A stretch of DNA of 25,654 nt from Octopus sinensis. Lineage: Eukaryota. Below the pieces are notes generated by a model. It was not told the origin of the DNA and made no database searches. It was given only the letters and a program-made list of their open reading frames with translations. Within the stretch, counting starts at the first letter, position 1. Each line of letters begins with the position of its first letter. This document shows, in pieces, positions 4,141-25,612 of this stretch. The stretch lies in NCBI RefSeq assembly GCF_006345805.1, contig NW_021836032.1, forward strand, positions 1 through 25,654, read 5' to 3'. The position numbers were made by a program, and so were the translations under genes.

Positions 4141-4789
4141 TAATAACAATTTTACTTTCAATTATGTTATGAAGCTAGTTATTCAAGCTCTAATTTCATT
4201 ACAATTATATGAATCATTAGACTACTTTTTTTTAAATGAAAACTGTGATAGTTTAGTTGCTAAAAAGCACTATAAGCACGCGAAAATGATAATCACGTTG
4301 CCTTTTAAAGACGAGTATGATTTTATGTTGAAGTAGTCTCATCTCAAGAAGTAGGCCTATCTTGTCTCCATCGCTTAAAGACTTGCAATTTTCGTAATCA
4401 AAGAAAAGTTACATTTATGTGTATTGGCACTCCTCATTTAGAAATGTTTGTCATTTAAGAAAACTAACATTTAAACTGGATGTTTTACTGCTTGTAGTTT
4501 CCATATTGGAAACAAGGGAAAAAATGCTAATAAAATAATGAATAATAGTGCAATGATAATAAATAACAACAGTGCGATACCGCCTGCCACTTAAACCAAT
4601 GTTGAAATTGATAGGAAAATGATAAAATAACAAATGAGAGAGGAAAAAGAGAACAATTTGCATTACAAATAACTGTTAAATGGAAGGTTTGTTTTTATTC
4701 GTATTATTTTTTAATTTATACGTCTGTCAAATTTCTTTCGTCACACATTCTATGACCTTATCAGTGACTTTCTGTCCAATGGGTTTCCG

Positions 4790-5019
4790 ATTTCTTTACT
4801 GCCCACAAGGGGATAAAGACAGAGGGGACAAACAAGGACAGACAAACGGATTAAGTCGATTGTATCGACCCCAGTGCGTACCTGGTACTTATTTAATCGA
4901 CCCCAAAAGGATGAAAGGCAAAGTCGACCTCGGCGGAATTTGAACTCAGAACGTAGCGGCATACGAAATACGGCTACGGATTTCGCTCGGCGTGCTAACG
5001 TTTCTGCCAGCTCGCCGCC
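4790..5019 (-). mobile_element. SINE family B, B1 tail, full length
   Basis: Reverse complement of 23892-24124 with high identity; A box tggcagaaacg, B box gagttcaaattcc. Confidence 0.9.
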
Positions 5020-8818: not shown

Positions 8819-9225
8819 GCTGGCAGAAAAGTTAGCACGGCGGGCGAAATGCTTAGCGGTATTTTGTCTGCCGCTACGTTCTGAGTTCAAATTCCACCGA
8901 GGTCGACTTTGCCTTTCATCCTTTCGGGGTCGATAAATTAAGTACCAGTTACGCACTGGGGTCGATGTAATCGAATTAATCCGTTTGTCTATCCTTGTTT
9001 GTCCCCTCTGTGTTTAACCCCTTGTGGGTAGTAAAGAAATAGGTATTTCGTCTGCCGCTACGTTCTGAGTTCAAATTCCGCCGAGGTCGACTTTGCCCTT
9101 CATCCTTTCGAGGTCGATTAAATAAGTACCAGTTACGCACTGGGGTCGATGTAATCGACTTAATCAGTTTGCGTGTCCTTGCTTGTCCCTTCTGTGTTTA
9201 GCCCCTTGTGGGTAGTAAAGAAATA
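8818..9225 (+). mobile_element. SINE family B1 tandem dimer
   Basis: Two consecutive body+tail units joined at aaagaaata|ggtatttcgtctgccgctacg (~9041). Confidence 0.9.
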
Positions 9226-9370
9226 GGTTATCAAAAATTGTGAGGACAAACACAATGATATGAACACATAATGCATATATGCATACACACAAACGCAAAA
9301 ACGCACGCACACACACACACACATACACACACACACACATACACACACACACACGCGCGCGCGCGTAGTG

Positions 9371-10817: not shown

Positions 10818-11000
10818 AATAATATGTTACATTACTCGATAGTCAAGATAAAACTCTGAGTTTCAGATGCCGAAGTGGGAATCCACAACGCCATCTCTTC
10901 GGTTATCTGGCTATAACCGAAGAGATGGCGTTGTGGATTCCCACTTCGGCATCTGAAACTCAGAGTTTTATCTTGACTATCGAGTAAATAACATATTATT
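10818..11000. repeat. Near-perfect palindrome: 75-bp perfect arms (10832-10906 / 10913-10987), 6-nt loop
   Basis: Arms are exact reverse complements; a further 12-bp pair lies at 10818-10829 / 10989-11000. Confidence 0.95.
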
Positions 11001-17164: not shown

Positions 17165-17513
17165 ATTACCTCCGCCTTAGCGAAGGCTGTGGTATTATTT
17201 TCAGTCGTGTTTGTTTGTCTGTGGACAAGATATCTCAAGTACCGCTGGATGGATTCGGATGAAACTTTCGGGGATGTTTGACCTCGTGACTGGCACGAAT
17301 TGATTAGATTTTGGAATCGATCTGGTACCGGACAAGGATTCTGGATTATTTTTCGGTTTTTTTTTTTTACTTAATTTTTGAGAGCGGTCGGGTTCATTTT
17401 TATTCTCATTTGTAAGAGCAATCGAGTTTATTTCAGATATTCTCATTTAAAGAAAGAAACATCTCTGGCTAATCGTTGAGAGGACGTTGATGTTGCCTTG
17501 GCGGAGGTTTGTG
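17165..17513 (+). mobile_element. Helentron/HINE-like non-autonomous element; its 3' hairpin is displaced to 19336-19366 by an insertion
   Basis: Subterminal IR acctccgcc (17168-17176) / ggcggaggt (17500-17508); 5' hairpin gcctt-agcg-aaggc; gtttgtttgtctgt; gatgaaactt; the 3' stem-loop gtgctc-tct-gagtgc is found at 19348-19362. Confidence 0.65.
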
Positions 17514-19335
17514 TCACAGGCGGTTTGAATTGTTTTTTGTGATGTTAGACATAGTTCACAGTGTTAAATATTTGTTTGGTTGTTACTGTTCAAATTGTTG
17601 CTAGTGTTATTTTGAATTGTTGTTTTTTTCTCATTGTGGAAAAATGGAGAAAACGCCAGCAGTTGGCCACAGTTATGCGGCTGCAACTGGAAAAGGGATA
17701 GACGCGGAAACGCTGGAGGTACGAGAAATAAAGAGTGAACCTCGAAAAATGAAGGAATGCGAGAAGTTGCTGGAAAGAGACGGAACTACATTGAAATTAA
17801 CGCCGGATGTGGAACTAACAACCAACGTAATGAAAAAAAAAAAAACGGTGATATATAAGACAATGAAGATGGCAACAAGAAAAATAGAAATAGCGACAAT
17901 AGAGGCTATTGAAGAATGTTTAAAGAATATAAAAAGTCTAACCGCATTTATAACAAAAGGGAGAAAGTACGCTACTGTGGAGGTGCGTTTTGTATCCGAA
18001 GTGGAAGCAATTCAGTACCCCACGGAGGCAATAAGATCGGAAGAATATGTACTTTTGCCATCGTACTGTGGTAAACGTGTGGCCAGGGTGCGAGTTGGCA
18101 AAGTGCCCCAGAGCTGAAAGAAGCATGGCTAATGACAGCCATAATGTATGACATGAATGAGGAGGCCAAGATACTGAAGAACCCAGAGTTAACTACTGGG
18201 GATATGGAATATAGTTTACCGTTCAAGCAACAGTGGAAGACCTAAATAGAATTGTCGAAGAGATAATGCTGCCCGATGACGTAAGATTGAGAGTGATGGT
18301 GGAGGGTAGGCCGCCTATATGTTATGCATGTGGAGAAAAGGGCCACATGAAGACGAGATGCCCCCAGAGGGAACAACAGATAGAGCAGATGGAGAGGCAG
18401 GAGAGCACGGAGCAGGTGGTACAGGTCGAGATAAAGGAGAAAGCAACGGAGGAGGGGTTCACGGTGTTTAAAAAAGAAAGAGGAGTGGGAGAGTGAGCTC
18501 TCCGCCAGAGCAGCAGAAAAGGAAGAAAGAAGATATGGAAAAGGAAGAGACCAGAAGGAAGGAAGACGAAATGGTGGTGAAAAAAATGAGCGAAAAGGAA
18601 CTTGAAGAAGTGTTCAAGGAGGTGTTGCATGAGAAGGAGACATTGGTGAGGACACCGGTTGTTGCAGTGGAGGAAGAAAGTTTAGAAATGTAACTGGAGT
18701 GTCTGCTCAGGGAGGTGGAAGAAAGGAAGACGGTATCAGGAGCGGAGCAGGAAAGGAGAAAACAAATGAGAAAAAGAAAATTTCAATGGAATTTTGTGAC
18801 GTACACAAAAAGCAAAGAAACTGAAAAGAAAGTATTAAAGTTTGAACATATTATAAGAGTTAAGTTGCCCACGGATGTGTATTCAGAGAATGTGAAGGCC
18901 ATCGTGGTTGACAAAGACACATACAGCAGACTGAAAGACATGTGTGGAGAAGGGATTGACCCGCCAGGTGTGATGGCGGAGTTCGATGAATTACCACCAG
19001 TAGTGAAGCTAAATGATTTAGAATCTTTTATGAGATATTAAAAAGTAAAAAACAGTAAAATTGTTTTATTAAAAAAGGAAGGAAAAAAGTAAAATTGTTT
19101 CATTTAAAAAAAAAAGAGGGAAAAACAAGAAAAAGGAATAATATAATAGAACAGTTGTAAATCGTTTATATAAACGTTCAAATGGTACTGCATGGGAGTG
19201 GGGCTCATGCAGCCATTTCATTTTTCATTTATATATAACGTCTCATTTTCATTCGTTTTGTGCTTTTTGTCCCCACTGTGGTGTCTTTGTAGTGTCCCCA
19301 TTGTGATGTGGTCGTAGTGCCAAAATAAAGAAACA
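17514..19335 (+). mobile_element. ORF1-only (half-LINE, HAL1-like) non-autonomous retroelement
   Basis: TSD ttggcggaggtttgtg (17498-17513) / ttggcgaggcttgtg (19336-19350); single disrupted gag-like ORF; ends aataaagaaaca. Confidence 0.75.
17644..19041 (+). pseudogene. L1/Tx1-type ORF1-like nucleic-acid-binding protein (~465 codons, disrupted)
   Basis: N-terminal SYAAA motif; RRM-like region (KGRKYATVEVRF...RVRVGKVP); EGRPPI-CYACGEKGHMKTRC (CX2CX4HX4C); Glu/Lys-rich linker. About 3 frameshifts and 2 stops join four ORF-track pieces. Confidence 0.8.
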
Positions 19336-19669
19336 TTGGCGAGGCTTGTGCTCTCTGAGTGCTACTGGCGACTGTTGTATGCGATGACTTTCTACGTTTT
19401 TCTTTACGACGAAAAAGTGAAGTTGTTCCCCAGTAACGAGCACAATAGCGATTAGCATAATTACGTTCGAATCTACCGTAGCGTTTAAGGAACAGATATG
19501 AAGTCATCGTTTTGAATCCTGCTGTTTACGGTGCATATGATGATACTTTTCTCAGAATGGGTCCATCCTTTTTTACGACTGTAAAATGTGATTCGTGGCA
19601 TGTGCGTCTGTTATTTCTCACAAATCGGTTGACTCCATAGTTTTTCTCATTGGTTCATATAAGTTTGCC

Positions 19670-22185: not shown

Positions 22186-22503
22186 CAACAACAGCAACAA
22201 CAACAACAACAACAACACAACAACAATAATAATAATAATAATAATATGTTACGTTCAACATCCTTAAACAACCCTTATTCAAGGACCTTTTGAGCAGGAC
22301 GGGCAACTCGATCTGAAGAAAATTCTAACTGGGCCCCACCTGCAAGGTCATGTGCTGTTTACCTTGATATGAGATCACTATGTTGTTCACATATGGTTGT
22401 GATGCCTGTATCTGGTGTACCCTTATCTTAGTCATGATAGTTATACTGAGTTTCATATATTTTACCCCAGTGTCACTTTGATGGTATGCACTACTCTCCC
22501 ACC

Positions 22504-23016
<513 letters not shown>

Positions 23017-25181: not shown

Positions 25182-25208
25182 GTAACTTTTTGAAATCTCT
25201 CTCTCTTT
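25057..25208. repeat. (TTTC)n polypyrimidine tract
   Basis: Direct reading. Confidence 0.95.
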
Positions 25209-25211
25209 CAT

Positions 25212-25612
25212 ATTTCTTTATTGCCCACAAGGGGCTAAACATGGAGGGGACAAACAAGGAGAGAAAAAAGGATTAAGTCGATTACATCGACCCCAGTGCG
25301 TAACTGGTACTTAATTTATCGACCCCGAAAGGATGAAAGGCAAAATCGACCTCGGCAGAATTTGAACTCAGAACGTAGCGGCAGAAAAATACCTATTTCT
25401 ATTTCTTTACTACCTGCAAGGGGCTAAACACAAGAGGGACAAACAAGGACAGACAAACGGATTAAGTCGATTATATCGACCCCAGTGCGTAACTGGTACT
25501 TATTTAATTGACCCCGAAAGGATGAAAGCAAAGTCGACCACGGCGGAATTTGAACTCAGAACGTTGCGGCAGACGAAATACCGCTAAGCATTTCGCCCGT
25601 CGTGCCAGCTCA
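25212..25612 (-). mobile_element. SINE family B1 tandem dimer
   Basis: Two body+tail units; junction near 25385-25405 matches that of the 8818-9225 dimer. Confidence 0.9.

What the first reader, a model, noticed from the sequence alone, without database searches (positions are those of the whole stretch)
17498..19350. TSD-bounded 1.8-kb retroelement encoding only an ORF1/gag-like protein, with no RT (HAL1-like)
Seen: a 130-bp 5' UTR, one ~465-codon disrupted ORF (SYAAA, RRM-like region, CCHC knuckle, charged linker) and a ~295-bp 3' UTR ending AATAAAgaaaca. It is flanked by ttggcggaggtttgtg / ttggcg-aggcttgtg. Removing the insert rejoins a Helentron-like end (ggcggaggtttgtg + ctctctgagtgc hairpin), which fixes both boundaries and leaves no room for ORF2. 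Established: ORF1-only non-autonomous derivatives of L1 (HAL1) are known. Inference: this is an independently derived half-LINE from a Tx1-like parent, mobilised in trans, which kept its own RNP protein. I do not know whether this family is already described.
Basis: partly seen in the sequence, partly recalled or inferred. Interest (0 to 1): 0.8.

Follow-up and report, generated by a model that had tools for sequence, protein, structure and literature searches.

The report
Site-seeking ORF1-only retrotransposons of octopus
This is a decayed copy of a 1.8-kb jumping gene that carries only an RNA-packaging gene and no copying enzyme, sits again and again at one spot in another mobile element, and belongs to a large group of such elements that likely borrow the enzyme of full-length relatives.

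Summary
Observation confirmed. Fourteen further copies span both ends (78-86% identity, 1.70-1.87 kb); none carries ORF2; empty host copies are contiguous. The protein is predicted to fold as two RRMs plus a CCHC knuckle and is ~30% identical to ORF1 of intact APE-RT LINEs of this genome (octopus, by homolog names). The family is one twig of a deep ORF1-only clade (support 99/98; dN/dS 0.1-0.2 between families). Young members of that clade have intact 466-525-aa ORFs, share only a ~50-nt hairpin tail with a young autonomous LINE and form head-to-tail trains with it at one target. The partner of this window's older family was not found; Tx1 membership was not tested against named elements. Closest known: HAL1, SINEU-3/Tx1-Mar, HeT-A. 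The scan noted site-specific Tx1 LINEs in other genomes, no ORF1-only ones. Not found in nine literature searches; Repbase/Dfam unchecked. New variant of a known kind.

The parts
17165..17511 (+). Host element, 5' part: ~370-bp HINE/DINE-1-like non-autonomous Helentron (5' subterminal repeat with nested inverted repeat 17169-17192, GTTT microsatellite, 3' subterminal repeat 17496-17507)
   Evidence: 4274 first-look candidates; features as listed for HINE/DINE-1 in PMC4067079 (passages)
17498..17511 (+). Target site duplication, 5' copy (14 bp)
   Evidence: loose ends at 17511
17512..19335 (+). ORF1-only non-LTR element, family A, full length, decayed
17512..17643 (+). 5' UTR, T-rich
17644..19041 (+). 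Broken ORF1 (466 codons plus stop in the family's majority columns)
17824..18310 (+). Region predicted to fold as two RRM domains (limits approximate)
   Evidence: Model of related copy L105 with a 46-row alignment that includes the window's N-terminal piece: pLDDT 72.5; tandem-RRM hits E 1e-5, Z 8.7 at rmsd 2.4 over 80 residues
18320..18361 (+). Single CCHC zinc knuckle
18784..19038 (+). Conserved C-terminal ~85-aa alpha/beta domain found in many ORF1-only families; no clear structural match
   Evidence: best Z 5.7, no Foldseek hit at E<=0.001
19042..19335 (+). 3' UTR; ends in a TGTCC motif, a short hairpin (19309-19322) and AATAAA (19324-19329); the tail pattern is shared with autonomous LINEs and a SINE
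19336..19348 (+). Target site duplication, 3' copy (one base missing, one changed)
19349..19363 (+). Host element, 3' hairpin and end

Best explanation
The element is a decayed full-length copy of a retrotransposon family that encodes only ORF1, sits at one 14-bp site in a HINE-like host in many separate loci, and was likely inserted there copy by copy by the ORF2 protein of an autonomous Tx1-like LINE acting in trans. Shown: anatomy, copy number, absence of ORF2, recurrence of the site, purifying selection, a shared 3' hairpin tail, and for young relatives (families G, H) a shared tail and shared target with an intact LINE. Inferred: the element's RNA is packaged by its own ORF1p; the ~50-nt tail recruits the partner's ORF2p as a SINE tail does; the partner's endonuclease picks the site (about 0.6); each insertion duplicates the site and so leaves a landing place for the next, giving stacks of different families. 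The partner of family A itself is inferred to be extinct or unsampled.
For: Site: 18 of 18 rows of the clade containing the window (bootstrap 100) have the host end at one or both junctions. In a search blind to the flank (17-nt tail, 23 exact matches, control 0), 13 of the 14 copies ending as family A does run into the host end (11 by script, 2 by eye). Independent insertion: host length variant, host loop variant and presence of a second family upstream all occur inside and outside the same element subclade; sisters L005/L006 differ by 9.3% while their hosts differ by 15.8%; Mantel r 0.06, p 0.36 on 14 loci; L049 and the first unit of L011 have more host sequence after their 3' end, which deletion cannot produce; 72 of 77 frameshift indels are private. 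Selection: dN/dS 0.14-0.20 raw and 0.08-0.14 net between ORF1-only families in the 8 of 10 pairs not saturated; in family A singletons 0.83, variants shared by 3 or more copies 0.26; intact G vs H 0.17. No ORF2: 100 of 128 de-duplicated ORF1 rows have >=1.9 kb downstream and no ORF2 start, 21 have one. Trans signal: hairpin before AATAAA in 82 of 124 distinct tails against 11.8 +/- 2.7 in shuffles, with different stems that all pair. Partner shown for relatives: H shares 49 of the last 50 nt with an autonomous LINE whose ORF1 is only 34-37% identical; 14 of 20 trains hold such a LINE, 12 end at the same target, 3 end there with a G or H unit and no LINE. Precedent for endonuclease-set targets and non-autonomous riders: PMC4494074 (passages, section 14).
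Against: No autonomous element was found at the HINE site: 0 of 29 loci at the neighbouring host site and none among the family-A-type tails have ORF2 running into the tail. Close sisters of family A with nearly the same tail sit at other targets, which a strict one-tail-one-endonuclease rule does not predict. Host distances are slightly lower within the element subclade (0.130) than across (0.146) or outside it (0.163), a weak trend toward carriage by the host; the Mantel test has little power on a star tree and ~340 bp of host. Clean 5'-truncated copies with both TSDs were not found; the truncated ones have lost the 5' junction. The 20 trains were picked partly for tandem spacing or closeness to LINEs. 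Tails are related, so the shuffle excess is not a probability. The trees have no outgroup.
Confidence: 0.85

Rival explanations
1. One or a few insertions into the HINE were then multiplied as cargo by the Helentron machinery.
For: Nearly all copies share both junctions and the tree is star-like; host and element are of similar age (mean distances 0.15 and 0.13); slight host similarity within the subclade.
Against: Three host markers cross the element tree; no diagnostic host variant marks filled hosts against 29 empty ones; other nick positions exist (L049, L011); at least four other tail types use the neighbouring host site. The insertion also splits the 3' subterminal repeat from the unique host body.
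Confidence: 0.08
2. Insertion is independent, but the target is remembered by RNA: with AATAAA only 6 nt from the end, transcripts would run into the TSD and pair with matching sites, the endonuclease being loose. (Alternative for the targeting step only.)
For: No poly(A) at junctions; tail and target are partly decoupled (same tail, several targets; several tails, one target); the element's 5' end resembles the target end and L016/L017 join through that likeness. Read-through pairing raises R2Ol insertion from 12% to 96% (PMC6530143, passages).
Against: Young G, H and their LINE share one genomic target although the sequence just after the nick varies between trains, which points to recognition of the upstream flank by protein.
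Confidence: 0.3
3. Each ORF1-only family arose separately by deletion from its own autonomous parent, so low dN/dS between families reflects selection on the parents.
For: ORF1-only groups K and N fall on the autonomous side; autonomous rows form one side of a branch in only 29% of bootstrap trees; autonomous families were sampled mainly through one ORF2 query. HAL1 arose several times (PMC5753468, passage).
Against: 22 ORF1-only rows, including A, B, D, G, H, are split from all 9 autonomous rows at 99/98; selection is also seen among ORF1-only copies within families (G-G 0.39, 0.17 in the first 240 codons; shared variants 0.07-0.26).
Confidence: 0.15
4. A one-off deletion of a LINE or a domesticated host gene.
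For: Protein databases list octopus homologs as gene models.
Against: Many dispersed copies with the same ends, TSDs, private lesions.
Confidence: 0.01

Closest known systems
HAL1 (half-L1) of mammals
   Same: Non-autonomous, encodes only ORF1p, arose more than once (PMC5753468, passage; the original paper PMC2923044 was not held).
   Different: ORF1 here is the RRM + CCHC type, not the mammalian coiled-coil type (types per PMC5203782, passages); no poly(A); sequence-specific target; deep clade with young intact members; shares only a ~50-nt tail with its partner.
SINEU-3 with Tx1-Mar (crocodilians); Tx1L in Tx1D (Xenopus)
   Same: Rider and Tx1 LINE home to a non-autonomous DNA transposon, ~16-bp TSD, tandem copies sandwiching a TSD (PMC4494074, passages and section 14).
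   Different: The rider here encodes a selected protein; the target is a HINE-like Helentron end; no autonomous element found at that target.
HeT-A of Drosophila telomeres
   Same: Gag-only, non-autonomous, under negative selection, head-to-tail arrays mixed with pol-bearing elements (PMC5537684, passages).
   Different: Internal sequence targets with TSDs, many families and targets, no host function known; I/Jockey-group origin of HeT-A is recalled, not from a call.
R2/R1 SIDE elements
   Same: Non-autonomous elements at the parent's site (PMC3414825, search listing and abstract start only).
   Different: SIDEs are internal deletions without a kept ORF (recalled); these keep ORF1 and are not deletions of the active partner.

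Membership tests
ORF1-only non-autonomous LINE (HAL1-like kind) | Encodes ORF1 homologous to that of autonomous LINEs | tested here: met
   tblastn ~30% identity, E ~1e-32 to ORF1 of intact APE-RT elements
ORF1-only non-autonomous LINE (HAL1-like kind) | No ORF2 in full-length copies | tested here: met
ORF1-only non-autonomous LINE (HAL1-like kind) | Multiplied as a unit with TSDs | tested here: met
ORF1-only non-autonomous LINE (HAL1-like kind) | Mobilised in trans | not testable with these tools
   Indirect only: shared tail and target in young relatives
HAL1 proper (mammalian L1 derivative) | Type II (coiled-coil, Transposase_22) ORF1 | tested here: not met
   Two predicted RRMs + CCHC; Pfam scans gave zf-CCHC and no Transposase_22
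Tx1 clade (parent LINEs) | ORF2 with APE, RT and C-terminal zinc domain; type I ORF1 | tested here: met
   PF03372, PF00078, PF13966, PF00098
Tx1 clade (parent LINEs) | RT groups with named Tx1 elements rather than L1 | tested here: inconclusive
   Best 120 homologs are almost all unnamed; none is labelled Tx1; no reference Tx1 RT was on hand for a tree
Tx1 clade (parent LINEs) | Target preference (same repeat in >20% of flanks, criterion of PMC4494074) | tested here: met
   Family A 13 of 14; 6 of 6 L141-type LINEs end in a SINE head
HINE / DINE-1-like non-autonomous Helentron (host) | Subterminal repeats, 5' inverted repeat, microsatellite, 3' stem-loop, T-rich flanks | tested here: met
   the two subterminal repeats match perfectly over 8-9 bp only
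HINE / DINE-1-like non-autonomous Helentron (host) | Autonomous Rep/helicase partner with the same ends | not tested
   No search was run
LTR element or endogenous virus | Terminal repeats | tested here: not met
   No long terminal repeats in any full-length copy; ends differ

The most novel reading that the evidence does not exclude
Octopus genomes hold an ancient lineage of 'protein-coding SINEs': ORF1-only elements that lost reverse transcriptase once, have since diversified as deeply as the LINEs themselves, and survive by matching a ~50-nt hairpin tail to whichever LINE is active, so changing partner and target over time, while their own ORF1p is kept because it wins the partner's ORF2p or steers the particle.
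Probability: 0.4. Interest if true: 0.8.

Novelty: new variant of a known kind. Interest (0 to 1): 0.62.

Why it matters
It joins three things known separately (ORF1-only riders, target-specific Tx1-type insertion, SINE-like tail sharing) in one large, still-young system. Intact rider and intact partner lie side by side, so one can test directly why a non-autonomous element keeps ORF1, how cis preference is beaten, and what sets the target. It also flags a class of repeats that annotation reports as uncharacterised CCHC genes.

Tried and rejected
Partner search for family A: junction patterns, tail pattern, 3' UTR search and ORF2 tblastn over loci found none. L034/L401 looked like an ORF2-family A chimera but is a nested stack with a deletion. 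L082/L083/L086 place an ORF1 copy beside an RT of Penelope look (label recalled); read as nesting. 'Host type B' turned out to be a second ORF1-only family. C-terminal domain: no PDB sequence match, no clear fold match; this does not show a new fold. Expression: no RNA holder listed; four runs guessed to be RNA gave short contigs only, no conclusion. The deep profile search of protein representatives could not be run, so ORF1 relatives outside octopus are untested beyond. One search's tree is the quick version; one search's output was cut in the middle. Literature: nine searches found no account of this element or of ORF1-only Tx1 derivatives; PMC13282606 (first third of text, term search, one supplement) lists L1-Tx1 families by number only. 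Repbase, Dfam, subscription journals and bioRxiv supplements were not searchable.

Full report
Observation. The window holds, at 17512-19335, a 1.82-kb element with a T-rich 5' UTR, one broken ORF (17644-19041) and a 294-bp 3' UTR ending AATAAAGAAACA without poly(A). A search of the window's genome scored 40 of 711 candidates and returned 64 matches; 14 copies besides the window span both ends in one piece, at 78-86% identity and 1.70-1.87 kb. In 17 aligned copies the majority-occupied columns between ATG and stop make 467 codons with a stop only at the last; 72 of 77 frameshifting indels are private. Homologs in protein collections are few and, where a species is named, from Octopus, so the genome is taken to be an octopus.

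Host. The flanks are the two parts of a ~370-bp repeat with subterminal repeats, a 5' inverted repeat, a GTTT microsatellite and a 3' hairpin, the HINE/DINE-1 anatomy (PMC4067079, passages). All 30 loci fetched with an empty copy are contiguous across the site, and 114-143 contigs in each of four public runs leave the window at 17511 into the hairpin. Summed contig depth over the host is several hundred times that over the element body (not a copy number).

Target specificity. The 18 rows that group with the window copy (bootstrap 100) all have this host end at a junction. A flank-blind search with 17 nt of the tail gave 23 exact matches; 14 end like family A and 13 of these run into the host end. 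A second site about 17 nt upstream in the same host end is used by family B and at least three other tail types, and the families stack head to tail. Sister families use other recurring targets with 13-18-bp duplications.

Independent insertion or cargo? Long and short hosts, two loop forms of the host's 5' hairpin, and presence or absence of family B each occur inside and outside the one well-supported element subclade. Sisters L005 and L006 differ by 9.3%, their hosts by 15.8%; the Mantel test on 14 loci is flat (r 0.06, p 0.36), though of low power, and host distances are slightly smaller within the subclade (0.130 against 0.146 and 0.163). L049 and one unit of L011 end at other nick positions. 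Clean 5'-truncated copies, the test used for SINEU-3 (PMC4494074, section 14), were not available. On balance repeated insertion is favoured.

Protein. A model from 46 natural segments (pLDDT 72.5) matches tandem-RRM proteins and is followed by one CCHC knuckle: type I ORF1 (PMC5203782, passages). A conserved C-terminal domain has no clear match. Young intact LINEs with APE, RT and zf-RVT carry an ORF1 ~30% identical. Their placement in Tx1 rests on this anatomy and behaviour; no named Tx1 was among the best 120 homologs.

A larger lineage. The ORF1 query had 10,072 first-look candidates, and all 150 scored passed E 1e-25. Of 128 de-duplicated rows, 100 lack ORF2, 21 have it, 7 had too little flank. 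In a careful tree of 37 rows, 22 ORF1-only rows including family A are split from all 9 autonomous rows at 99/98, while 6 ORF1-only rows (K, N) fall on the autonomous side; there is no outgroup. dN/dS between ORF1-only families is 0.14-0.20 with dS 1.1-2.9 in the 8 of 10 pairs that were not saturated; family A singletons are near neutral (0.83) and shared variants are not (0.26).

Young members. A search with family D found 33 of 150 hits with stop-free frames of 467 codons or more (counted by eye). Families G (1.94 kb, 95-97% identical, ORF 486-525 aa) and H (1.79 kb, 94-95%, 466-468 aa where intact) have no ORF2 and dN/dS 0.12-0.39. They share only the last ~50 nt with a young LINE whose ORF1 is 34-37% identical to theirs. 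In 20 trains (chosen for tandem spacing, long frames or closeness to LINEs), 14 include the LINE, 14 start at the same upstream flank, 12 end at the same downstream target, and 3 end there with G or H alone; the spacer between units is mostly particular to each train, as expected when each insertion duplicates the local junction. The tail holds a hairpin whose stem differs between families yet pairs (82 of 124 tails; shuffles 11.8 +/- 2.7).

Mechanism. Shown: anatomy, no ORF2, recurring site, selection, shared tail, shared target in G/H. Inferred: own ORF1p packages the RNA, the tail recruits a partner ORF2p, target-primed reverse transcription makes the 14-bp duplication. The partner's endonuclease most likely sets the site (about 0.6; stated as the main determinant in PMC4494074); read-through pairing is the rival (0.3; precedent PMC6530143). 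Against the simple picture: no autonomous element was found at the HINE site (0 of 29 loci), and near-identical tails use different targets.

Comparison and verdict. It works like HAL1 (PMC5753468) and HeT-A (PMC5537684) and targets like SINEU-3/Tx1-Mar, but is a member of none of these families. Nine searches found no description; Repbase and Dfam could not be checked. Earlier scan notes describe site-specific Tx1 LINEs in other genomes and nothing on this sequence or genome. New variant of a known kind; interest 0.62.

Noticed in passing
L361-L400 (e.g. G000:C24:4666400-4688400, C10:80313000-80333000): Trains of up to a dozen young ORF1-only units (G, H, K) ending in an autonomous LINE, mostly at one site that reads as ORF1 sequence of another element.
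   Followed up: partly
L203, L204, L205; equivalent to window ~18970-19000: An autonomous LINE end sits antisense at about the same position in the ORF of three separate family A copies.
   Followed up: partly
Host 5' hairpin, window 17169-17192; L005, L011, L029 and 4 of 29 empty hosts: The hairpin loop occurs in two reverse-complement forms (TTAGCGAA / TTCGCTAA), like flip/flop ends of single-stranded DNA replicons (comparison recalled).
   Followed up: partly
window 4784-4961, 8858-9228, 25206-25582; L141-L146: An abundant ~185-bp SINE-like repeat, often in tandem, ends in the same hairpin-AATAAA tail; the L141-type LINE inserts at its head in 6 of 6 loci.
   Followed up: partly
L005, L009, L010, L024: A long host variant with a ~620-bp homologous insert bounded by a short direct duplication.
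   Followed up: partly
L401 / L034 (G000:C2:125199500-125208500): An A-like copy at a non-HINE target holds a nested ORF1-only unit and a nested autonomous LINE in its 5' UTR.
   Followed up: yes
L082, L083, L086: Three near-identical loci where a 3'-truncated ORF1 copy abuts an RT of Penelope look (label recalled).
   Followed up: no
window 22403-22734: A LINE-like C-terminal fragment (IPVVIGAL motif, restriction-like endonuclease by recall) interrupted by an AAT microsatellite.
   Followed up: no
window 10832-10987 and 1132-1249: A perfect 75-bp inverted repeat with a 6-nt spacer, and a perfect 57-bp tandem duplication.
   Followed up: no
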